Positions 1 to 40,926 of a stretch of 40,926 nt of DNA are shown one piece after another. Both the position numbers and the translations under genes were made by a program. The stretch is taken from NCBI GenBank assembly GCA_051008975.1, contig JBPCXA010000217.1, forward strand, positions 1 to 40,926, in the 5' to 3' direction. The notes under the pieces were generated by a model. That model was not told where the DNA came from. It saw only the letters and a list, made by a program, of their open reading frames with translations, and searched no databases. This stretch comes from Gammaproteobacteria bacterium. GTDB taxonomy: Bacteria > Pseudomonadota > Gammaproteobacteria > Tethybacterales > Persebacteraceae. Each line of letters begins with the position of its first letter. The first letter of the stretch is position 1.

Positions 1-127
1 ACTTGCAGATGTTGTGGGCTCGCACCCCGAAACGACGTAGCCGTTAATTGCATCAGACCACCAAGCGCCTCGCTCCCTCGCCTCTGAGCCAAGGCTGTGC
101 GTATTAGCGCCTAATGCAACCGATGCG
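1..127. repeat. Terminal direct repeat, left copy (circular-contig overlap)
   Basis: 1-127 is identical to 40800-40926, and a reading frame continues uninterrupted across the join. Confidence 0.95.
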
Positions 128-7232: not shown

Positions 7233-8473
7233 TGTCTTATCACCACAGGGTAATTGCTCGGCAACCGCACACGGGGTGGCCGACGCTTGCGTGCTGTCAC
7301 TGGTGCACGCACATCAAGCCGGTCCTTCCGTGCAAGTTGATGTAGGCGCCTAAGGAACGCGATTCCACGCTGATACCGCTGCTCAAAGAACAGTGCCATC
7401 AGCCCATCGTAACCCTCCCCCTGGCGGTTGAATGCACGAAACAATGTATAGTACCGCAAATACTTAGCCATCTGTGGAGGGAGTAAGACGGCCTCATCCT
7501 GCTCCGTCAATGTCGTGGCGTCGGGTATGCGGGCTTCAAGCACGAGCAAACTATCGGACGAACTAGCTAGCCACGTGGCACGCCCCAGTGGTTCATCAAG
7601 AGGTTCTAACGTGCGCGGGTAATACTGTCGATCAGGCGAGCTGATACGGCGCGGAATGCCGTAAGGTATCGTATCGCCGCTGTCTGATGCCCAGCCATAG
7701 ACGCGGTCGCCAGAAAATCGCCGCGCGGAGCCATGCAACGGGTTCCCGTCATTGGTGACCGCGTCTATGTGTCGGTAATTCGCCACGTAAGCCGTGTTGA
7801 TCGCATAGACCTCAAATGTTCGGTTCGGACCTATCCCGAGTTGCCAGGTGACAGGCAAGCCTTGAAGGCTCATCCATGTCGTGAAGGTATCGTCAAGCGA
7901 GCGCGTGCTAATCGGAAGGAGCAATCTGTGATTGTGCCATATCTTCACCACGCGCTCCGTATCACGTGGTACGGCGAACTGGAAGTGTTGGTGGATTGAC
8001 CTATTGAATGCACGCTCCCATGGGTGAGTCACCACGCCACCAGAGCTTAGTGTGCTCACCTGGCTACTGACGCCGGCAACAACACTATCTTCGGTCACAA
8101 AATCGCCTGTATCAAAGTCTTCTGAGAACTGCCCTATCGTCACCTCTACGGATGCGACGTCCTCTAGAACTTCAATCTCCCAAAGCGACGACACCGCCCA
8201 CCCACCGGCCGTAAGAGTACTCCACTGCCAAGCAGGCGCGTCACGTACATAGTCGCGCTCCCATGGCTGAGACACGGAACACGGAAAGCGTGGAGGCACA
8301 TCCAATACCGTGAAGCGGCGCGTCGGGGATACCTCGGCCACCATGTGGCGGTAACCGTCTTCGAAGTAAGCGAGCAGCTCAGCACGAGACCAGAACATGC
8401 CATCAGTTCCAATGGTGCGAGCATCCTGCAAGATGAGCTGGCAGCGGTCAAGATGTGTACGGATAGTGGGCAT
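7229..8473 (-). CDS. Head-tail adaptor-like protein
   Basis: Likely start MPTIRTHL at 8473; FWSRAELLAYFEDG resembles the adaptor motif of the neighbouring gene; C-terminal YLRYYTLFRAF helix. Confidence 0.6.
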   Translation of the reverse strand: MPTIRTHLDRCQLILQDARTIGTDGMFWSRAELLAYFEDGYRHMVAEVSPTRRFTVLDVPPRFPCSVSQPWERDYVRDAPAWQWSTLTAGGWAVSSLWEIEVLEDVASVEVTIGQFSEDFDTGDFVTEDSVVAGVSSQVSTLSSGGVVTHPWERAFNRSIHQHFQFAVPRDTERVVKIWHNHRLLLPISTRSLDDTFTTWMSLQGLPVTWQLGIGPNRTFEVYAINTAYVANYRHIDAVTNDGNPLHGSARRFSGDRVYGWASDSGDTIPYGIPRRISSPDRQYYPRTLEPLDEPLGRATWLASSSDSLLVLEARIPDATTLTEQDEAVLLPPQMAKYLRYYTLFRAFNRQGEGYDGLMALFFEQRYQRGIAFLRRLHQLARKDRLDVRAPVTARKRRPPRVRLPSNYPVVIRQ

Positions 8474-28106: not shown

Positions 28107-28400
28107 TTATTTGCCGCTGGAATGAGATGTTGGTGTGCCTCTTGACTGTTCTCTACGCGATGACATCTGCACTAGCAACCGTTGCAACTCGTCGATTTTG
28201 GCATCTAGGCGATCGATGTGCCGCTCTAGGCGATCAACGTGCTTGCTCCAATTTTCCCGCAGCATGGCTCCAGGGTGTGGCTGCGCGGAATGCTGGCGGA
28301 GCGTGAATGCACCGACAGCACCACTTAGTAAGACAATGGCCATCATAGTGCCAAAAAACGATTTGTATGTGAGATAAGTGGAATCTGTTGTTGATTTCAT
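28107..28400 (-). CDS. Single-TM coiled-coil protein, first gene of the late operon
   Basis: Likely start MKST at 28400; TM segment then (DRLERHI)-type heptads. Confidence 0.6.
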   Translation of the reverse strand: MKSTTDSTYLTYKSFFGTMMAIVLLSGAVGAFTLRQHSAQPHPGAMLRENWSKHVDRLERHIDRLDAKIDELQRLLVQMSSRREQSRGTPTSHSSGK

Positions 28401-28411
28401 TTCACGCTCAC

Positions 28412-28500
28412 ACCGGGGATAGTCAGTAACTATCCCCGGTATACAGGGAGCTCGGCTAGGTTCGCCGCGTATCCGGGTCAAATCGAGTACGCCCTAGCCT
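28412..28500 (-). promoter_or_regulatory. Structured 5' leader of the late operon
   Basis: GGCTAGG/CCTAGCC stem enclosing GCGTA/TACGC, followed by the perfect 12-bp hairpin ACCGGGGATAGT/ACTATCCCCGGT (28412-28440). Confidence 0.6.
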
Positions 28501-28506
28501 AACTAG

Positions 28507-28535
28507 ATCGTACAAGCACGAGAGGTATTTGTCAA
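28507..28535 (-). promoter_or_regulatory. Sigma70-type leftward promoter of the late operon
   Basis: TTGACA-17 nt-TACGAT. Confidence 0.75.
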
Positions 28536-28595
28536 TTCTGTATCTCCATGAAATCAGCGACATACGAGATATTTGCATTCCCCATCAAATACCCC

Positions 28596-28624
28596 TTGAC
28601 ATTCTACCGCTATAGTAGTATATT
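28596..28624 (+). promoter_or_regulatory. Sigma70-type rightward promoter
   Basis: TTGACA-17 nt-TATATT. Confidence 0.8.
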
Positions 28625-28630
28625 TATATT

Positions 28631-28773
28631 AGAAGGTAGGACGGAGCAAGGGAAGCGGGGCTCCTGAGAAAAACAGACCCGAATGACTACCCGAAACCGA
28701 GCCGGCAAGCGCAAAGCCAGGCAGGGGAGAGAAAAGGCAAAGGGCCACGGGGCTTATGAAAAACCAAGATGTC
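28631..28773 (+). ncRNA. Candidate ~140-nt structured RNA released by hammerhead cleavage
   Basis: Lies between the predicted TSS and the GUC cleavage site; GGTAG/CTACC and GGAGC/GCTCC stems; no T between 28689 and 28753. Confidence 0.45.
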
Positions 28774-28819
28774 GCCGGGGATGGTACCCCGGACCTGAGG
28801 AGAGACCATACGAAACATC
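28768..28819 (+). ncRNA. Hammerhead ribozyme, type III, with loop I-loop II pseudoknot
   Basis: Stem III GAUGU/ACAUC; GUC site (C28773); stem I GCCGGGG/CCCCGG(A)C; core CUGAGGA (28795-28801); G28802-C28811 stem II; GAAA (28812-28815); loop I AUGGU complementary to loop II ACCAU. Confidence 0.88.
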
Positions 28820-28832
28820 AAGGGGAAGCGTG

Positions 28833-29036
28833 ATGAAACTGTACGAAATCAGAATCGCCAACGTAAAAAAAACCCACCTAGATATCGCCATCGACCGCTT
28901 CGGTTGGCATGACGCAAATATCGATTGGTGGAATTACAACGCAGGATGCACACTCACAGTGAAATCCAACACAAACGAGATCGATCGCTTTGACAAGATG
29001 CTGAATAAACCCAGCAGAGTCAAAGAAATTAGCTAA
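28833..29036 (+). CDS. Small hypothetical protein (67 aa) downstream of the hammerhead
   Basis: AAGGGGAAG RBS then GTG/ATG; MKLYEIRIANVKKTHLDIAIDRFGW... Confidence 0.7.
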   Translation: MKLYEIRIANVKKTHLDIAIDRFGWHDANIDWWNYNAGCTLTVKSNTNEIDRFDKMLNKPSRVKEIS

Positions 29037-29042
29037 TACACT

Positions 29043-29062
29043 ATGGCCCCTTCGGGGGCCAT
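29043..29062 (+). other. C(UUCG)G tetraloop hairpin between cassette genes
   Basis: ATGGCCCC-TTCG-GGGGCCAT, no U-tract. Confidence 0.75.
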
Positions 29063-29080
29063 GCACCAAGGAGAAGCAAG

Positions 29081-29356
29081 ATGGAACGGACAATCAAACA
29101 AATCACGACGCGCCACACCTTTGCCTCTCGCCTAAGAGAGGTTCTTCCACCCGGACGCAGCGCATCGGCTACGTGTAAAGCGATGCGCGATGAGGGCTAC
29201 AAAATCAGCCAGCAAATGATGTCAGACATGCTATGCGGAGCCAAAAAACCATCGCTAAGGATGGCGACTCAGATCGCCGATTACTTTGAGATCGATTTGA
29301 ACTGGTTAGCTGGCAGGGAGTGGCCACCGAATGAAGAAAAAAAGGCAAGCGAGTGA
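29081..29356 (+). CDS. XRE-family HTH regulator
   Basis: FASRLRE...ISQQMMSDMLCGAKKPSL..ATQIADYFEIDLNWLAG; AAGGAG RBS. Confidence 0.85.
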   Translation: MERTIKQITTRHTFASRLREVLPPGRSASATCKAMRDEGYKISQQMMSDMLCGAKKPSLRMATQIADYFEIDLNWLAGREWPPNEEKKASE

Positions 29357-29386
29357 AAACTCCATTAACTATCACAGATAAGCATG

Positions 29387-29424
29387 TAACGAAGGAGCGC
29401 CACAGAAATGGCGCTCCTTCGTTA
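29387..29424. terminator. Probable bidirectional terminator hairpin
   Basis: 16-bp perfect stem TAACGAAGGAGCGCCA/TGGCGCTCCTTCGTTA between convergent transcription units; U-tracts are weak. Confidence 0.7.
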
Positions 29425-29685
29425 AGCTGTGAATCTGTATTTCCCACCATTCGTTCCCTGACAATGCTTGCACAAGATTCCGTTAATCGTCCCTGTATGA
29501 TCCTCCTCGCAATACTCGGATGTGCACTTGTACATACCCTTCTTGTGCAGCAGTAAAGAGCACAGCGCACAAGCAGGATGCCCCTTCAGAGGCTCATTGC
29601 AAAAAACACAAGCCGTCTTCCTATCCTTCTTTTCAGTTGGCCCGGGATGGATTGCCGGGGTCAGTAATTTACGTGGCATGATCAT
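29422..29685 (-). CDS. Cys-rich zinc-finger-like protein
   Basis: CVFC, CALC, CTSEYC, CKHC. Confidence 0.6.
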   Translation of the reverse strand: MIMPRKLLTPAIHPGPTEKKDRKTACVFCNEPLKGHPACALCSLLLHKKGMYKCTSEYCEEDHTGTINGILCKHCQGTNGGKYRFTA

Positions 29686-35164: not shown

Positions 35165-35365
35165 TCATCTGTTTTTCTTACGGTACACGGTTTCACGAAC
35201 ATAGCCCAAATGGTCGATTAACTTAGGCCCAATCCGTCGTTTTCTGGTCATAACTTCCGATAAATATTGATAACTAACGCCACACAACTTCGCGAATTTG
35301 TTCTGCGATCCAGCCTTCGCGACCCCTTTGACAAGCGCTTGAAATACGTCTTCTTCGCTGGGCAT
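35165..35365 (-). CDS. Cro-like HTH regulator
   Basis: GSQNKFAKLCGVSYQYLSEVMTRKR; AGGAG RBS; first gene after the leftward early promoter. Confidence 0.8.
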   Translation of the reverse strand: MPSEEDVFQALVKGVAKAGSQNKFAKLCGVSYQYLSEVMTRKRRIGPKLIDHLGYVRETVYRKKNR

Positions 35366-35400
35366 AACAACTCCTATCTTTCAATTCCTCATGCGAATGA

Positions 35401-35429
35401 TTGACATTTTCAAATATACGGAGTATAGT
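35401..35429 (+). promoter_or_regulatory. Sigma70-type rightward early promoter
   Basis: TTGACA-17 nt-TATAGT. Confidence 0.8.
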
Positions 35430-35441
35430 GTGGATTGTCAA
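35413..35441 (-). promoter_or_regulatory. Sigma70-type leftward early promoter (overlaps the rightward one)
   Basis: TTGACA-17 nt-TATATT on the minus strand. Confidence 0.8.
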
Positions 35442-35470
35442 GGCTTGATGCATGAAAGGAGGTGATTATC

Positions 35471-35503
35471 ATGCGCCGCCCCTGTAATCGGGGCATAACA
35501 TAG
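35471..35503 (+). CDS. Putative leader peptide MRRPCNRGIT
   Basis: Near-perfect Shine-Dalgarno AAAGGAGGTGAT at 35455-35466. Confidence 0.45.
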   Translation: MRRPCNRGIT

Positions 35504-35523
35504 GTGGGAACAACTCAACACTG

Positions 35524-35553
35524 CCGACGCGGTACGAGATCGTACCGCGTCGG
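35524..35553. other. Perfect GC-rich hairpin upstream of recT
   Basis: CCGACGCGGTACG-AGAT-CGTACCGCGTCGG, 13-bp stem. Confidence 0.8.
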
Positions 35554-35573
35554 AGCCAGGAGGAGGGCATACG

Positions 35574-37010
35574 ATGGAACAGCACGCACAGAGCATACAG
35601 CCCACGACCAACAATGACGATGTCCGGCATAACGCAGATTCGTTGATCGATGAAATCGTCCATGCAACGTTCGAGCACTGGACGCAGCCACACGAGGTTG
35701 CGTTACGTGGCGCGTATGATGCACTGGCTGAAATATTGCCTGGGGAGTCTGAGCGATTTATCAAAGCCGTGTGGCTGCATTTTCAGCGGAATCCGACCTT
35801 GCAACAATGCGCACCCGAGAGTATCCGGGAAGCCGCCGTTGATCTCGCGCTGTCCGGCTTGGATATTACACAGAAAGGTGAGGCCTGGCTCATACCTCAT
35901 GACGTAAAGCGTAGGGTCGGTAAGGATAGATGGGAGACAACAAAGCAGTGTGTCGTATGGGATGGCTATATTGGCCGTCTGAAGCTCGTGCGGCAATCTC
36001 CTGACGTCGTTGACGCTTGGCCCATGATTGTGCGTGCTGGCGATTCGTATCGTTTCTGTGGCCCTGCTGCGTTGCCAGAGCACAAGTTTCCTGAGGGATT
36101 CGGCGACCGGGGCAGCATCGTCGGAGCTTACTGCGTCATCCAGTTCACTGATGGGCGTATCAAAGCGCTGCAAATGTCCAAAGAAGAAATCATTGCTCAC
36201 CGTGATCAGTATGCCAAAGCCAAGGACGCCGACATCTGGCAAGAGTTCAAAACGGAATGGAAGAACAGTCAGAGGAAAAAGAGCGATAAAGAGAACCTCG
36301 GTTTTCAGCATATGTGCTCAAAGGTTGTCGTGAACCAGCTTTGCCACCCACGAAACGTGACGTTTAATCGTTCGTCCCAAAATATCATTGGCCGCCAAGA
36401 GCGCGTCCTTGAGGATGCACGACCGCTTACGGCCGCCGACACTCAGCCTGTGGAGCCATCGGCTACGACGTTTAATTCGATCGATGAACTCTATGGAGAA
36501 GATACATCGCCAGACAAAACGGCCTTCATTGATCGGATTCGCAACGACTATCAGACTGTCATATCCCCGCTGGTCCCAGAGGTGGGGCGTGCGTTCTTCG
36601 CAAAGTACTTTTTCCGGTGCAAGACGTGGGAGGACATGCCGCGCTTCACACTGAAGCAGTTATCGCAGCGGAATGAGGAGTGGATACAGACCATCGACCG
36701 GCTTGCGACTAATGGGCTCCCCGACTCCTGCGAGCAGTGGACAGAAGAACAGTGGATGACTTGGGTCAAAAACCCGTGGGCCAACGGTGACCAGAAGGAT
36801 CGTACCGGGCTGATTGAGGATTTGACATTTTTGATCCATCAATCCCAGGTGCAGACTGTAGACCTCTATGACTGGCTACGTTCGCAGTTCAATAAGGCCC
36901 AGGAGTCGGAGCTAAGCGATGTTGAGCTAAAGCAGTGTATCGCCCATTTCGGCACATACGGCAACGACGGAGTCACGCGTGATCTGTCTATCGAGGAAGG
37001 GGCGAACTGA
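35574..37010 (+). CDS. recT: RecT-family single-strand annealing protein with long C-terminal extension
   Basis: NPTLQQCAPESI..A....A..GL......GEAWLIP, GYIG.L.L..QS, IVGAYCVI....G.....MSKEEI..HR, M..KVV. Confidence 0.85.
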   Translation: MEQHAQSIQPTTNNDDVRHNADSLIDEIVHATFEHWTQPHEVALRGAYDALAEILPGESERFIKAVWLHFQRNPTLQQCAPESIREAAVDLALSGLDITQKGEAWLIPHDVKRRVGKDRWETTKQCVVWDGYIGRLKLVRQSPDVVDAWPMIVRAGDSYRFCGPAALPEHKFPEGFGDRGSIVGAYCVIQFTDGRIKALQMSKEEIIAHRDQYAKAKDADIWQEFKTEWKNSQRKKSDKENLGFQHMCSKVVVNQLCHPRNVTFNRSSQNIIGRQERVLEDARPLTAADTQPVEPSATTFNSIDELYGEDTSPDKTAFIDRIRNDYQTVISPLVPEVGRAFFAKYFFRCKTWEDMPRFTLKQLSQRNEEWIQTIDRLATNGLPDSCEQWTEEQWMTWVKNPWANGDQKDRTGLIEDLTFLIHQSQVQTVDLYDWLRSQFNKAQESELSDVELKQCIAHFGTYGNDGVTRDLSIEEGAN

Positions 37011-38992: not shown

Positions 38993-40926
38993 GCGATATC
39001 GTCGCAGCAGCGGTGTTGTGTTGTACTGTCACCGTAATATCGCCAGAAGTAGTTGTGGTAGCTACGCCTATGGAGCCTACTCCTGCAAGCCTTGTTACGG
39101 CTGAGGCTAAACCGCCCAAGCCGCCTGGGCCAGACATTTCAAACGTGCCAAATGTCGTGACGGTGGTTTGATTGTTTGGATCGCCGGAAACACGCATCGA
39201 TAATATCCAGCTGCGTTGGGTCGGGCTCGTCGTGATTGATGCAAAAGGGAAATTCCCAATAGTCGTTCCCTTATACCTCACTCGCAACGTAACAGTCTCA
39301 TTTATACCGCTGTTGTTTGTATACTCTCCTGCGACTTCTAATTTTACGCCACTCGGGCCATCAATAGCATTCCCTGGAATCGTTGTGGTAATGATAGTTG
39401 TTTCTACTGCTGTGTTAGAAACAATAGCACTGGGGATGACACTATGATCTGCAAGTTGAACAGAAGTATCTCCAGTACGAGTGATCGTTACTCCTGCTCC
39501 AGGCCTTCCAGCATAATCAGTTGTTGTGAATAAGATATTGTTTGGGCCAAGCTGAGTATCAGAAACTGCTCCAGATGTGAAATCCACAGCGGTTGCATAG
39601 CCAGAAATCGCATTGGAATGGACTGAATTACCCACCAGCCCATTAGACAGTTTGACAGCAATATTTGTCCCACTTCCACCGAAAGAATTTCCAACAATAG
39701 AAACTCCTCCACCGAGCCCAGGAGTCACACTATCCAAGTCGATTGTCGCGGGTGATGAATCCTCAAAGTAATTTCCGCCTATAAACCATCCAATGGGAGT
39801 TCTGCCTCGAATAGAGCCAAGCGCGTTTCCTTCAATATCGCTACCAGTAATCGATACAGCGCGAGTTTGTGCCGTAGCATTAATTCCCCATCCGAGATTA
39901 CCCTGAATGCGTGATTGATCAATGGACACTTGGTTTAAGTTCTGACTTAAACCATCCATTTTTATGCCATCACCCACGTTTGCCTGCACATAGAGATTCG
40001 AAAATCTCAGAACAAGAGAGATGCCTCCAGTCGCCAAATCGTCAATCAGTATACCTGCTGTCGTATGTCCGGTTGCACCTACCCCGCCCGTCGCTCTCCC
40101 CGCAACTCGGACATTCTGCACATCGATATCTGCTGCACCAAAGATGTGCAGACCTGTGGCGCCAGTTGTTGAACGAATCGCGAGATTACGGATGGTTACC
40201 GTAAAATTGAAATCGCCTGGCGACGTGCCGCCATCAATTAAAACCCCATCGCCTGAACCTGTGTAACGAAGGATCGTGCCGGCAGTTTCGATGACTACAG
40301 AACCATGACTGCATCCTTCAAGAATTTGGCCTCTGTTTAGCGAGAGTGTTGTTGCAAACCTGATCACACCGCAAGGAAGAGTAATGTGTTCCGTGGAATC
40401 TAATGCAAGCTGAAGAGCGGCCGAATTGTCAGTCAAGTCGTCGGCTACAACGCCGAATTCAGCAGCAAAACGGCCTGAGGCAACCGTGTTAGAAGGAATG
40501 CTTCTTACTGGTGCTATAAGCGATACCGCTGTAATTGCCCCGCCACTTACCGTAACTTCAGAAAAGACAAGCCCCCCAGAAGGGTTGGCCGGCTGTGTAA
40601 CGTTCATCTGCCAAAGATAATGAGTGGCCCCGTGCCTAGTCCATCCAGACACGGCAGATACTCGCTCTCTATGCAGGGCCAGCCAGTAGGTGCCATCTCC
40701 GCCACTAAGAGGGCCAACAACGCTTGACGGTTGAATCGTATAGATGATTTCGCCTGAATCTTCTAGATACCCCTCACAAGCAAAAGCAGTGACCGTTGTA
40801 CTTGCAGATGTTGTGGGCTCGCACCCCGAAACGACGTAGCCGTTAATTGCATCAGACCACCAAGCGCCTCGCTCCCTCGCCTCTGAGCCAAGGCTGTGCG
40901 TATTAGCGCCTAATGCAACCGATGCG
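38952..40926 (-). CDS. Tail spike / depolymerase with pectate-lyase-like beta-helix (true start at 168/180 across the contig join; ~671-675 aa)
   Basis: AAEFGVVADDLTDNSAALQLALD...LPCG (pectate lyase superfamily N-terminal motif) and beta-helix rungs (IEGN, IGGNYFE, IVGNSF); frame is open from 40652 to the contig end. Confidence 0.8.
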   Translation of the reverse strand, partial: ASVALGANTHSLGSEARERGAWWSDAINGYVVSGCEPTTSASTTVTAFACEGYLEDSGEIIYTIQPSSVVGPLSGGDGTYWLALHRERVSAVSGWTRHGATHYLWQMNVTQPANPSGGLVFSEVTVSGGAITAVSLIAPVRSIPSNTVASGRFAAEFGVVADDLTDNSAALQLALDSTEHITLPCGVIRFATTLSLNRGQILEGCSHGSVVIETAGTILRYTGSGDGVLIDGGTSPGDFNFTVTIRNLAIRSTTGATGLHIFGAADIDVQNVRVAGRATGGVGATGHTTAGILIDDLATGGISLVLRFSNLYVQANVGDGIKMDGLSQNLNQVSIDQSRIQGNLGWGINATAQTRAVSITGSDIEGNALGSIRGRTPIGWFIGGNYFEDSSPATIDLDSVTPGLGGGVSIVGNSFGGSGTNIAVKLSNGLVGNSVHSNAISGYATAVDFTSGAVSDTQLGPNNILFTTTDYAGRPGAGVTITRTGDTSVQLADHSVIPSAIVSNTAVETTIITTTIPGNAIDGPSGVKLEVAGEYTNNSGINETVTLRVRYKGTTIGNFPFASITTSPTQRSWILSMRVSGDPNNQTTVTTFGTFEMSGPGGLGGLASAVTRLAGVGSIGVATTTTSGDITVTVQHNTAAATISLRSRAYFLEMLPQ
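40800..40926. repeat. Terminal direct repeat, right copy
   Basis: Identical to 1-127. Confidence 0.95.

What the first reader, a model, noticed from the sequence alone, without database searches (positions are those of the whole stretch)
28596..29424. Self-contained cassette: promoter, ncRNA, hammerhead, small ORF, UUCG hairpin, HTH gene, terminator (candidate ribozyme-processed anti-defence or immunity system)
Seen: this is a short plus-strand island between two minus-strand operons. It has a near-consensus promoter, a ~140-nt structured leader, the hammerhead, a 67-aa unknown ORF, a C(UUCG)G hairpin, an XRE HTH gene and a 16-bp terminal stem. Established: strong promoter + small unknown gene + small HTH is the architecture of acr-aca and other anti-defence operons, and also of immunity loci. 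Inference: self-cleavage would split one transcript into a free small RNA and a protein-coding message, both possibly autoregulated by the HTH protein. This would be an RNA + protein module matured without host nucleases. I do not recognise it as a described system.
Basis: partly seen in the sequence, partly recalled or inferred. Interest (0 to 1): 0.85.

Follow-up and report, generated by a model that had tools for sequence, protein, structure and literature searches.

The report
Hammerhead ribozyme heading a phage operon
A genuine self-cleaving hammerhead ribozyme sits just in front of the first gene of a small early operon in a complete 40.8-kb phage genome, a layout already known from other phages, and the claimed new anti-defence cassette is not supported.

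Summary
Nearly all the listed parts are present at the stated coordinates. The hammerhead (28768-28819, cut after C28773) is real. A covariance model built from 17 other phage hammerheads, without the window, scores it 50.9 bits (E 1.7e-12). Across 38 distinct relatives, stems I and III and a loop I/loop II pseudoknot covary. The "structured" leader is not supported: it is 7% U and 70% purine, and it folds no better than shuffles.

The cassette is not a conserved unit. The 67-aa protein (confident ferredoxin-like fold) and the 91-aa XRE-like HTH have no homologues anywhere. Genes downstream of related hammerheads vary, and HTH genes are rare beside them.

The recurring feature is a hammerhead abutting a ribosome-binding site: 32 of 37 contexts, against 7.8% of random positions. 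Some follow a strong promoter and a U-poor leader. Others sit between cistrons, with type II hammerheads or twister ribozymes further along the operon.

Perreault et al. 2011 described this arrangement in general terms. My best reading is a natural leader-trimming, RiboJ-like element heading an early phage operon. The roles of its proteins are unknown, and anti-defence remains possible but untested. I rate it a new member of a known kind, of moderate interest.

The parts
28596..28624 (+). Near-consensus sigma-70-type promoter (TTGACA, 17 nt, TATATT). The inferred transcription start is about 28631.
   Evidence: One search gives 11 of 12. One search shows it is one of three 11/12 promoters in 27-41 kb. 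The -35 hexamer and its upstream CCC context are shared with the promoter ahead of the homologous hammerhead in G011 (alignment) and are seen in L056.
28631..28773 (+). Untranslated leader of about 143 nt, the 5' cleavage product. It is U-poor (7% U) and purine-rich (70%), and it is not predicted to be structured.
   Evidence: The start is inferred from the promoter. The end is the hammerhead cleavage site.
28699..28758 (+). Leader block conserved with one otherwise unrelated phage (G011).
   Evidence: blastn gives 77% identity over 61 nt, E 8e-6, within the loci held. See also the alignment. The two-sequence consensus fold has 18 pairs, 5 of them compensatory, which is weak evidence.
28768..28819 (+). 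Hammerhead ribozyme with type III topology (stem III open). Stem III is 28768-28772 with 28815-28819. The cut is between C28773 and G28774. Stem I is 28774-28794. The core CUGAGGA is 28795-28801. Stem II is reduced to G28802:C28811, closing an 8-nt loop. GAAA is 28812-28815. The pseudoknot pairs AUGGU (28781-28785) with ACCAU (28805-28809).
   Evidence: 50.9 bits with the leave-one-out model; family covariation.
28820..28828 (+). Shine-Dalgarno region of the first gene. It starts at the first nucleotide after stem III.
   Evidence: distance from stem III end to SD start is 0 in the window; family median is -1.
28833..29036 (+). 67-aa orphan protein with a beta-alpha-beta-beta-alpha-beta (ferredoxin/ACT-like) fold.
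   Evidence: Only itself was found in 5.8 billion and in 1.8 billion proteins. AlphaFold2 on the single sequence gives pLDDT 91.8 and pTM 0.77. The Atlas model has pTM 0.76. Fold neighbours are generic ferredoxin-like proteins.
29042..29063 (+). Intercistronic 9-bp hairpin capped by a UUCG tetraloop.
   Evidence: -17.3 kcal/mol, z -4.27, 0 of 200 shuffles fold as well.
29081..29356 (+). 91-aa XRE-like helix-turn-helix protein, also an orphan. Its SD is at about 29068-29076.
   Evidence: PHROG repressor families reach E 1e-5. Pfam HTH_3 scores 13.6 bits, below its cut-off of 23. The five-helix model has pLDDT 77. Its nearest solved folds are all XRE-type HTH domains, but with E >= 7e-3. No homologue was found.
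29387..29424 (.). 16-bp perfect hairpin between the island and the convergent minus-strand gene (29422-29685). It is a likely two-way transcript end and has no U-tract.
   Evidence: I2.: -29.6 kcal/mol on the plus strand and -31.5 kcal/mol on the minus strand.

Best explanation
This is an immediate-early transcription unit of a complete, circularly assembled phage genome of about 40.8 kb. A strong host-type promoter drives a U-poor leader of about 143 nt, followed by a hammerhead ribozyme and then two small genes.

The hammerhead belongs to a well-populated phage subclass. It has type III topology. Stem II is cut down to the G:C closing pair. A 5-bp loop I/loop II pseudoknot supplies the tertiary contact.

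Shown: the RNA has every feature of an active hammerhead and belongs to a covarying family. The family is tightly tied to translation start sites.

Inferred:
- The ribozyme cuts co-transcriptionally after C28773. This removes the leader as an RNA with a 2',3'-cyclic phosphate end.
- The remaining message has a 5'-hydroxyl and begins with the stem I hairpin.
- Loss of the 5-nt 5' strand of stem III leaves the Shine-Dalgarno sequence, which starts right after stem III, single-stranded.
- The net effect resembles the engineered insulator RiboJ. It gives a defined, protected 5' end and an exposed ribosome-binding site, independent of the upstream sequence.

The cargo is a 67-aa ferredoxin-like protein of unknown role. 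An early host-directed or anti-defence function is possible. It is followed by a UUCG hairpin and a small XRE-type regulator that may shut the promoter off. These protein roles are guesses from position only.
For: Hammerhead identity:
- All core residues are present and the stems are in register.
- The descriptor hits this site alone in 2.35 Mb. The expectation is 0.018 per window for the loose descriptor, and 0 of 20 Mb at this site's stem lengths.
- The model built without the window scores 50.9 bits, E 1.7e-12.
- On 38 distinct family members, 90.1% of cells pair, against 66.9% in shuffles (0 of 500 shuffles reach it). With slid partners, 31-41% pair.
- All 7 of 7 stem I pairs, 4 of 6 stem III pairs and 3 of 5 pseudoknot pairs show double changes. 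The pseudoknot was not part of the model.
- UGG occurs in loop I of 18 of 18 first-round members, although neither the pattern nor the descriptor asked for it.

Coupling to translation:
- 32 of 37 testable contexts have an SD plus the start of an ORF of at least 40 aa within 30 nt (median 8 nt). At 7400 random same-strand positions the figure is 7.8%.
- The SD begins inside stem III in 18 of 32 contexts, 0-3 nt after it in 10 of 32, and further away in 4 of 32.

Leader and promoter layout:
- The promoter, the 3' part of the leader and the hammerhead are homologous in G011.
- By eye, promoter-like sites lie about 100-170 nt upstream in several other loci. The strict scan also lists one at -122 in L153.

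Precedent:
- Perreault 2011.
- RiboJ raises protein 2- to 10-fold and transcript about 2-fold (abstract of PMC6206723).
Against: - No RNA data exist. All four runs that hold the sequence are DNA, so cleavage in vivo is not shown.
- Stem II has a single Watson-Crick pair. Perreault 2011 report that changes around the pseudoknot strongly alter the rate, so activity cannot be read from the sequence alone.
- Rfam's own hammerhead models do not reach threshold.
- The stabilising and translation-activating effect is an analogy, not a measurement.
- In the window the SD abuts stem III but does not lie inside it.
- 5 of 37 family contexts lack an adjacent start.
- The family alignment was fitted to the model's stems, which favours them.
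- Part of the family was retrieved with a pattern that fixes the core and the CCA of loop II.
- The leader's partial conservation in G011, and in a second contig from the same cave study, is not explained by a pure 'discarded leader' model.
Confidence: 0.7

Rival explanations
1. The operon is an acr-aca-type anti-defence operon. The 67-aa protein would inhibit a host defence system, and the HTH (Aca-like) would repress the strong promoter after the early burst. The hammerhead would be an accessory that boosts early expression. This concerns the cargo and is compatible with the best explanation of the RNA.
For: - The order is strong promoter, small orphan gene, then small HTH in one operon.
- The island is one of three near-consensus promoters and so is probably early.
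- Perreault 2011 found the anti-restriction gene ardA directly downstream of hammerheads in several genomes, beside a marR regulator in one.
- One ArdC-N domain protein occurs among the ORFs near related hammerheads.
- The small protein folds confidently, so it is probably real.
Against: - PADLOC, NCBIfam, Pfam and PHROGs give no hit for the 67-aa protein.
- Its fold neighbours are generic ferredoxin-like proteins and uncharacterised phage proteins.
- No inverted-repeat operator overlaps the promoter. The only candidate is a pair of 8-nt arms 54 nt apart.
- The HTH reaches no curated cut-off.
- No anti-CRISPR or Aca library was available, so membership could not be tested.
- This architecture is common to many early phage genes.
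Confidence: 0.2
2. The island is the phage's immunity or lysis-lysogeny control locus. The HTH would be a CI- or Cro-like repressor acting on the back-to-back promoters at 28.5-28.6 kb (late operon leftward, island rightward) or at the 35.4-kb switch. The 67-aa protein would be a co-factor.
For: - The HTH's best family hits are phage repressor PHROGs and the RstR phage repressor, weakly.
- The island promoter is divergent from a 10/12 promoter of the leftward structural and lysis operon, about 60 bp away.
- In G011 an XRE gene lies divergent from the ribozyme operon.
Against: - No integrase was found among the 20 larger ORFs scanned. Not every ORF was scanned.
- A separate small Cro-like HTH ORF sits at the 35.4-kb switch itself (read by eye).
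- The 91-aa protein has no C-terminal dimerisation or peptidase domain of CI type.
- Binding cannot be tested here.
Confidence: 0.12
3. The released leader is the functional product. The hammerhead would act as a terminator-free 3'-end maker for a U-poor, purine-rich RNA of about 143 nt that acts in trans, for example as a decoy or sponge for a host RNA-binding protein or nuclease.
For: - The 3' 61 nt of the leader are 77% identical in G011, although the two phages share only about 5 proteins and the downstream ORFs are unrelated.
- A further contig in the same cave study matches 28655-28705 with 6 differences.
- U-poor sequence upstream of the hammerhead recurs. The mean is 17% U against a 24% background, and 12 of 37 loci fall at or below the 5th percentile of their own locus.
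- The window's leader lies at the 0.1 percentile of its genome.
Against: - No Rfam family matches.
- The fold is no more stable than shuffles.
- Structural support comes from two sequences only.
- GGA motifs occur 4 times in the 178 nt upstream. By my own arithmetic from the composition, about 6 would be expected in the 143-nt leader.
- Many family members are intercistronic, with no leader at all.
- Only one database relative of the leader was found.
Confidence: 0.12
4. The motif is a chance or decayed hammerhead-like sequence with no catalytic activity.
For: Rfam scores 16.5 bits, at noise level. Stem II has one canonical pair. The MFE fold of the isolated element is only z -1.56.
Against: The leave-one-out model gives E 1.7e-12. 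All invariant core residues are present. The pseudoknot is kept by a compensating register (AUGGU with ACCAU). The same short stem II occurs throughout a covarying family of 38 distinct sequences.
Confidence: 0.04

Closest known systems
Prophage and phage hammerhead ribozymes flanking single genes or short gene blocks (Perreault et al. 2011, PLoS Comput Biol, PMC3088659; passages read)
   Same: - The ribozyme lies in a phage genome, in a non-coding stretch directly ahead of a small gene.
- A pseudoknot between stems I and II serves as the tertiary contact. The paper reports this for all three topologies.
- The cargo genes vary and are mostly unknown. Sometimes they are anti-restriction genes (ardA) next to a regulator.
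- The halovirus HF1/HF2 hammerhead lies 13 nt upstream of the first start codon of an early polycistronic transcript. Here also, 13 nt separate stem III from the AUG.
   Different: - The window has a single ribozyme rather than a tandem array.
- This subclass has stem II reduced to one G:C pair. It is not picked up by any Rfam 15 hammerhead model at gathering score: 0 of 16 anchor loci.
- I could not see the paper's supplementary alignments, so the subclass may already be in them.
Rfam RF02276 Hammerhead_II (type II hammerhead with a loop I / 3'-tail pseudoknot)
   Same: From the GUC onward, the stem I sequence, its UGG loop, the core and a following CCA-containing pseudoknot partner look very similar (alignment). 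Genuine type II copies follow the type III copy in the same operons: 5 in L052 and 3 in L059.
   Different: The element is circularly permuted. Here stem II is closed and stem III is open. Read in type II register, the window has A in place of the essential G12, so only the type III reading has an intact core. The score is 16.5 bits against a gathering score of 37.
RiboJ, the engineered hammerhead insulator placed between promoter and RBS (abstract of PMC6206723; the original design paper is recalled, not read)
   Same: In both, the order is promoter, arbitrary leader, self-cleaving hammerhead, then RBS. Cleavage removes the leader and leaves a hairpin at a 5'-OH end. RiboJ raises transcript and protein levels.
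   Different: RiboJ is a designed part derived from a plant satellite RNA ribozyme plus an added hairpin. The phage element is natural, belongs to another subclass, and its effect on expression has not been measured.
acr-aca anti-CRISPR operons
   Same: A strong early promoter, a small unknown first gene and a small HTH gene lie in one operon.
   Different: There is no homology to any known Acr or Aca. No operator repeat was found in the promoter. As far as I recall, a ribozyme is not part of described acr-aca operons. My search for hammerhead + ribozyme + phage + anti-defense returned 2 papers. In the one I opened, PMC10651486, the ribozyme is an engineered tool. The other I judged from its title and abstract only.

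Membership tests
Hammerhead ribozyme | Conserved catalytic core: C3 U4 G5 A6 N7 G8 A9, G12 A13 A14, the A15.1:U16.1 pair, and H17 at the cleavage site | tested here: met
   CUGAGGA is at 28795-28801, GAAA at 28812-28815, and GUC at 28771-28773 with C17 at 28773. The core numbering is recalled from standard usage.
Hammerhead ribozyme | Three helices around the core, supported by covariation | tested here: met
   Stem I shows double changes at 7 of 7 pairs and stem III at 4 of 6. Overall 90.1% of cells pair, against 66.9% in shuffles. Stem II is only the invariant G:C pair, so it carries no covariation.
Hammerhead ribozyme | [quoted passage not shown] | tested here: met
   In the window, AUGGU (28781-85) pairs with ACCAU (28805-09). 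In the family, 81% of pseudoknot cells pair and 3 of 5 pairs show double changes, although the pseudoknot was not in the model.
Hammerhead ribozyme | Site-specific self-cleavage giving 2',3'-cyclic phosphate and 5'-OH ends | not testable with these tools
   No RNA run holds the sequence. This needs in vitro transcription or 5'-end mapping.
Rfam hammerhead families (clan CL00010) | Score at or above the curated gathering score | tested here: not met
   There is no hit at gathering. The best hit is Hammerhead_II at 16.5 bits against 37. The same holds for all 16 related anchor hammerheads.
XRE / Cro-CI type HTH regulators | Match to an HTH_3-type profile above cut-off | tested here: not met
   Pfam HTH_3 scores 13.6 bits against a cut-off of 23. 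PHROG repressor families reach E 1e-5.
XRE / Cro-CI type HTH regulators | Five-helix lambda-repressor-like fold | tested here: inconclusive
   The single-sequence model has five helices and pLDDT 77. All top solved neighbours are XRE-type domains with TM about 0.6, but Foldseek E >= 7e-3.
acr-aca operon | First gene is a known or demonstrated defence inhibitor | not testable with these tools
   No family or fold match was found. No anti-defence library is on hand.
acr-aca operon | Aca operator (inverted repeat) overlapping the operon promoter | tested here: not met
   The repeat search of 28380-29480 finds no short-spaced inverted repeat in 28590-28630. It finds only 8-nt arms 54 nt apart.
   The ORF and the HTH have no homologues in any of the hammerhead loci or in the protein databases. 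HTH_3 was hit by 1 of 135 ORFs from 37 loci. G011 has an XRE gene, but it is divergent and not in the operon.
Intrinsic (Rho-independent) terminator | GC-rich stem followed by a U-tract | tested here: not met
   The stem is present. No T-run follows on either strand, and the terminator scan does not list it.

The most novel reading that the evidence does not exclude
The hammerhead would be a two-product device that phages swap as a unit with its promoter.

1. Cleavage would gate translation. It sheds the 5' strand of stem III, which abuts or covers the Shine-Dalgarno sequence (28 of 32 family members lie within 3 nt or overlap). The first gene would then be translated only from processed RNA.
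2. Cleavage would also release a U-poor, purine-rich leader with a cyclic-phosphate end. This leader would act in trans on a host RNA-binding protein or nuclease early in infection.

The partial conservation of the leader across otherwise unrelated phages, while the downstream genes are replaced exactly at the ribozyme/SD junction, would reflect selection on that RNA.
Probability: 0.12. Interest if true: 0.75.

Novelty: new member of a known kind. Interest (0 to 1): 0.4.

Why it matters
The biological role of the thousands of hammerheads in bacteria and phages is still called elusive. A 2019 review says this (PMC6765202), and the introduction of a 2026 paper repeats it (PMC13725137).

This locus is a minimal, fully delimited example in a complete phage genome: one promoter, one ribozyme, two small genes and one terminal hairpin. 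The survey around it gives three testable regularities for one hammerhead subclass:
- It is missed by Rfam's thresholds.
- It sits directly against the ribosome-binding site (32 of 37 contexts).
- It often follows a U-poor leader behind a strong promoter, while type II hammerheads or twisters separate the later cistrons.

These regularities favour a role in shaping 5' ends and translation of early phage messages, as the engineered insulator RiboJ does. They do not favour a dedicated anti-defence system. The practical gain is better annotation of phage genomes and a natural set of ribozyme insulators. The host is an uncultured bacterium from a cave metagenome, so tests would have to be done in a surrogate.

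Tried and rejected
Steps that led nowhere or were set aside:
- **Rfam.** At gathering score the whole window gave nothing. At E <= 10 the region gave only noise-level hits: snoZ178, L2 leader, ylbH and sR55.
- **DNA similarity of 28500-29450 to 50,697 phage records.** No match.
- **Relatives of the 67-aa protein, the HTH and the neighbouring phrog_7499 protein in viral contigs.** None.
- **DNA of the island in 10 other genomes of the host's family.** None.
- **Model R2 in 150 other genomes of the host's class.** Not found in those searched.
- **Strict 6-nt-loop pattern in metagenome contigs.** 0.
- **Looser pattern in genome contigs.** 0.
- **Leader pattern in viral contigs.** Only G011 again.
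- **Sequencing runs.** No RNA holder is listed. Four DNA runs of one cave-metagenome study hold the stretch, and two of them may be its source. Laying their contigs showed no variants in the region, so no test of synonymous versus non-synonymous change was possible.
- **CsrA-sponge idea for the leader.** GGA count is not above my rough composition estimate (one search count; composition).
- **A second hammerhead in the leader or elsewhere in the window.** None with filters off.
- **A 117-aa ORF (28683-29036) spanning the hammerhead.** Rejected. It has no SD and no family hit. Its N-terminal part simply translates the purine-rich leader. The gene callers behind the protein collection report the 67-aa form.
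- **A 25-codon uORF across the ribozyme (28756-28833).** Noted but not adopted, because the stems covary as RNA.
- **Supplements of Perreault 2011.** I could not open them. They may already list this subclass.

Rows dropped before counts:
- From the 23 unique descriptor hits, I left out L042, L061 and L108 (weak stems, no UGG loop).
- I also left out L014:194-250 and L116, which are hammerheads with an ordinary stem II.
- That left 18 sequences for alignment A1 and 17 for A2.
- Identical rows or identical contexts were counted once.
- Two contexts with under 160 nt downstream were excluded.
- The ORFs are mechanical, chosen greedily by length, and include wrong-frame ORFs. The counts are therefore lower bounds. 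G011's divergent XRE gene lay outside locus L009 and is not among them.
Full report
**What is there**

The window is one whole contig of a 2.35-Mb metagenome-assembled genome. Its ends share a 127-nt direct repeat. A contig from a public run wraps around it. It is therefore a complete, circularly assembled phage genome of about 40.8 kb.

The gene layout is as follows:
- Minus-strand genes from 28481 down to 128 encode lysis-like, tail, terminase and head proteins.
- Minus-strand genes from 35121 down to 29422 include a replication initiator.

The promoter at 28596-28624 matches 11 of 12 consensus positions. It is one of only three such promoters in the right third of the genome. The other two form a face-to-face pair at 35.4 kb. 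The island is therefore probably transcribed early by the host polymerase. This is an inference.

**The hammerhead is real**

Read in type III topology, the sequence has every invariant core residue. It has a 5-bp stem III, a 7-bp stem I with one bulged A, GUC at the cleavage site, and G:C at positions 10.1/11.1.

Rfam does not call it. Its best score is 16.5 bits for the type II model, at noise level. That model expects the permuted order, and read that way an essential G is missing.

A simple descriptor finds this one site in the whole 2.35-Mb genome. In 20 Mb of Markov sequence with the window's dinucleotide content, it finds 9 sites, or 0.018 per window. It finds none with stems as long as here.

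The decisive evidence is family membership:
- A pattern taken from the core and loop II found one viral contig.
- Of the 23 unique descriptor hits, 18 including the window share the same build.
- A covariance model made from the other 17 scores the window at 50.9 bits, E 1.7e-12. Nothing else in the window scores above 10.3 bits.
- With 28 further metagenome loci, 45 matches gave 38 distinct sequences.
- On these, 90.1% of pair cells are standard pairs, against 66.9% in column shuffles (0 of 500 shuffles reach it) and 31-41% with slid partners.
- All 7 stem I pairs, 4 of 6 stem III pairs and 3 of 5 pseudoknot pairs carry double changes.

The alignment was fitted to the stems. The pseudoknot was not in the model. 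The UGG of loop I was not asked for by any pattern, yet it is present in 18 of 18 first-round members.

In this subclass stem II is only the closing G:C pair. The 8-nt loop pairs with loop I. In the window, AUGGU (28781-85) pairs with ACCAU (28805-09).

None of the 16 anchor hammerheads I scanned reaches any Rfam hammerhead threshold.

**What goes with it**

The closest relative is G011, a 39,270-nt viral contig with terminal repeats. It shares only about five proteins with the window phage. Its local layout still matches closely:
- It has a matching promoter (same -35 and upstream context).
- It has a homologous 3' leader block (77% over 61 nt).
- It has a hammerhead with compensatory changes in stems I and III.
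- An SD and start codon follow.

Its downstream genes are unrelated to the window's. They are separated by two twister-P5 ribozymes, scoring 37.7 and 28.8 bits against a gathering score of 37.6. An XRE gene lies divergent from its promoter rather than inside the operon.

In other loci, the type III hammerhead is followed along the same strand by five (L052) or three (L059) Rfam-grade type II hammerheads.

Across the family:
- 32 of 37 testable contexts have an SD and the start of an ORF of at least 40 aa within 30 nt of the ribozyme's end (median 8 nt). At 7400 random positions of the same strands the figure is 7.8%.
- The SD begins inside the 3' strand of stem III in 18 of 32, within 0-3 nt after it in 10, and further away in 4. 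In the window it starts at the first nucleotide after stem III.
- Some members sit about 100-170 nt behind promoter-like sites with no intervening gene. Others sit within 25 nt of an upstream ORF's end.
- The 100 nt upstream are U-poor on average: 17% against 24%. Twelve of 37 loci lie at or below the 5th percentile of their own locus. The window is the extreme case, at 6%.

**The cargo**

The first genes after these hammerheads are diverse and mostly of unknown function. Hits include DUF7303, an AAA_5 ATPase, an AAA_33/zeta-type kinase and phrog_3754 twice.

I took 135 mechanically called ORFs around 37 loci. Pfam HTH_3 hit one and HTH_17 one. An ArdC-N domain, a CsrA homologue, small terminases (4) and Pam3 gp34-like proteins (4) also appear. 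HTH genes are therefore not regularly linked to this ribozyme.

The window's two proteins have no relatives at all. Only the query itself was found among 5.8 billion clustered proteins. The same holds for the 67-aa protein in an exhaustive phmmer search of 1.84 billion representatives.

The 67-aa protein is nevertheless very likely real:
- AlphaFold2 without an alignment gives pLDDT 91.8 and pTM 0.77, with a beta-alpha-beta-beta-alpha-beta fold.
- The ESM Atlas holds a model with pTM 0.76, nearest to ACT domains.
- Foldseek finds only generic ferredoxin-like folds and uncharacterised small phage proteins. The best E-values are 6.7e-3 in PDB and 2.4e-3 in BFVD.

The 91-aa protein is XRE-like but below thresholds:
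- PHROG repressor families reach E 1e-5.
- HTH_3 scores 13.6 bits against a cut-off of 23.
- The model has five helices at pLDDT 77.
- All nearest solved folds are XRE-type domains, with weak E-values.
- PADLOC and NCBIfam add nothing.

**The other parts**

The UUCG hairpin (29042-29063; -17.3 kcal/mol; z -4.3) and the 16-bp terminal stem (29387-29424; about -30 kcal/mol on either strand) are real. Neither has a U-tract.

The UUCG hairpin occupies the intercistronic place that ribozymes hold in G011. It may protect the 3' end of the first cistron or damp read-through into the regulator gene. This is an inference.

The leader is not structured. Its fold z-score is +0.54 and it is 70% purine and 7% U. 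A two-sequence consensus fold of its conserved 3' part has 18 pairs, 5 of them compensatory. This is too little to build on.

**How it most likely works**

Shown: the element is a bona fide member of a covarying hammerhead family that is positioned against ribosome-binding sites.

Inferred:
- Co-transcriptional cleavage after C28773 removes the leader.
- The message then starts with a 5'-hydroxyl and the stem I hairpin.
- The short 5' strand of stem III leaves with the leader, so the SD next to it is freed.

This is what the engineered insulator RiboJ does. RiboJ raises protein 2- to 10-fold and transcript about 2-fold in E. coli (abstract of PMC6206723). That 5'-OH ends and 5' hairpins slow 5'-end-dependent decay is established knowledge that I recall rather than tested.

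**Comparison with what is known**

Perreault et al. 2011 (PMC3088659; passages read) reported:
- hammerheads flanking single genes or short blocks in prophages, with variable gene identities;
- processing of polycistronic phage RNAs as the suggested role;
- ardA directly downstream of hammerheads in several genomes, with a marR regulator in the same Agrobacterium locus;
- pseudoknots between stems I and II in all three topologies;
- a halovirus hammerhead 13 nt upstream of the first start codon of an early operon, with the mapped 5' end within 3 nt of the cleavage site.

A 2019 review still calls the function open (PMC6765202, passages read). My searches for hammerhead with phage anti-defence or early genes turned up no natural anti-defence ribozyme cassette in the papers opened. 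One search returned 2 papers. In the one I opened the ribozyme is an engineered tool. The other was judged from its title and abstract. One search returned 105 papers, of which 12 were listed and one was opened.

The finding is thus a new member of a known kind. The claim of an undescribed self-contained system is not supported.

**Verdict**

- Confidence that this is a functional, leader-trimming hammerhead heading an early phage operon is about 0.7.
- An anti-defence role for the 67-aa protein has a probability of about 0.2, and an immunity-repressor role for the island of about 0.12.
- Interest is 0.4.
- The boldest reading still open has a probability of about 0.12. In it, cleavage gates translation and releases a trans-acting U-poor leader RNA that travels with its promoter and ribozyme as a module.

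Noticed in passing
window 1-127 and 40800-40926: The two ends of the window are an identical 127-nt direct repeat. A 40,829-nt contig of a public run wraps around. The window is therefore a complete circularly assembled phage genome of about 40.8 kb, binned into a bacterial MAG.
   Followed up: partly
window 35165-35575: This looks like a second control region. Two 11/12 promoters overlap face to face (35401-35429 plus, 35441-35413 minus). A Cro-like HTH ORF of about 67 aa lies on the minus strand at about 35165-35366 (read by eye; it is below the 80-aa ORF list). A perfect 14-bp hairpin at 35524-35553 lies in the 5' UTR of the RecT-like gene. No hammerhead is present here.
   Followed up: partly
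window 28409-28443: A 16-bp hairpin (-26 kcal/mol, z -7.9) lies in the 5' untranslated part of the leftward late operon. One arm matches 10 of 11 nt of the hammerhead's stem I / loop I sequence, and the other arm is complementary to it (D7 and I7). This may be chance, or an RNA-RNA or shared protein site.
   Followed up: no
window 28756-28833: A 25-codon upstream ORF starts at an AUG preceded by GGGG and runs through the whole hammerhead. It stops at a UGA that overlaps the AUG of the 67-aa gene (UGAUG). In G011 the matching AUG is in frame with the first gene (read by eye). Translation through the ribozyme would compete with its folding. Other family members lack this AUG.
   Followed up: partly
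window 28631-28773 and the 100 nt upstream of related hammerheads: The leader is 7% U. U-poor sequence upstream of the hammerhead recurs in the family. The mean is 17% against a 24% background, and 12 of 37 loci are at or below the 5th percentile of their own locus. This is unexplained.
   Followed up: partly
L052 5323-8111; L059 408-3563 (minus); L009 11735-12504 (minus): These are ribozyme-punctuated operons. A type III pseudoknot hammerhead comes first. Five (L052) or three (L059) Rfam-grade type II hammerheads, or two twister-P5 ribozymes (L009/G011), then follow between small genes.
   Followed up: partly
L010 230-634 (minus), in viral record G011: A pentapeptide-repeat protein (A-N/S/D-L-Q/R-G/W/E units, encoded by a 15-nt tandem DNA repeat) lies just downstream of the ribozyme operon, after a hairpin. 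Proteins of this kind can mimic DNA. That statement is recalled, not tested.
   Followed up: no
coded runs X1 and X3, contigs laid on window 28655-28705: Another contig in the same cave-metagenome study (2,342 nt in X1, 8,278 nt in X3) matches 51 nt of the leader with 6 differences. Its flanks also resemble the window's leader (tables 7 and 8). It is a second relative of the leader that I could not fetch.
   Followed up: no
L037 2170-2227 (minus); L059 13482-13528 (plus): Rfam Mu-gpT-DE RNA matches above gathering score (51.7 and 57.6 bits) occur in two of the hammerhead-bearing viral contigs.
   Followed up: no
window 28507-28624: The island promoter and a 10/12 promoter for the leftward late operon stand back to back, with their -35 hexamers about 60 bp apart. 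The same 8-mer, CAAATACC, occurs next to both -35 hexamers on their own strands (I1). A similar A-rich-then-CCC context precedes the -35 in G011, L056 and L025.
   Followed up: partly
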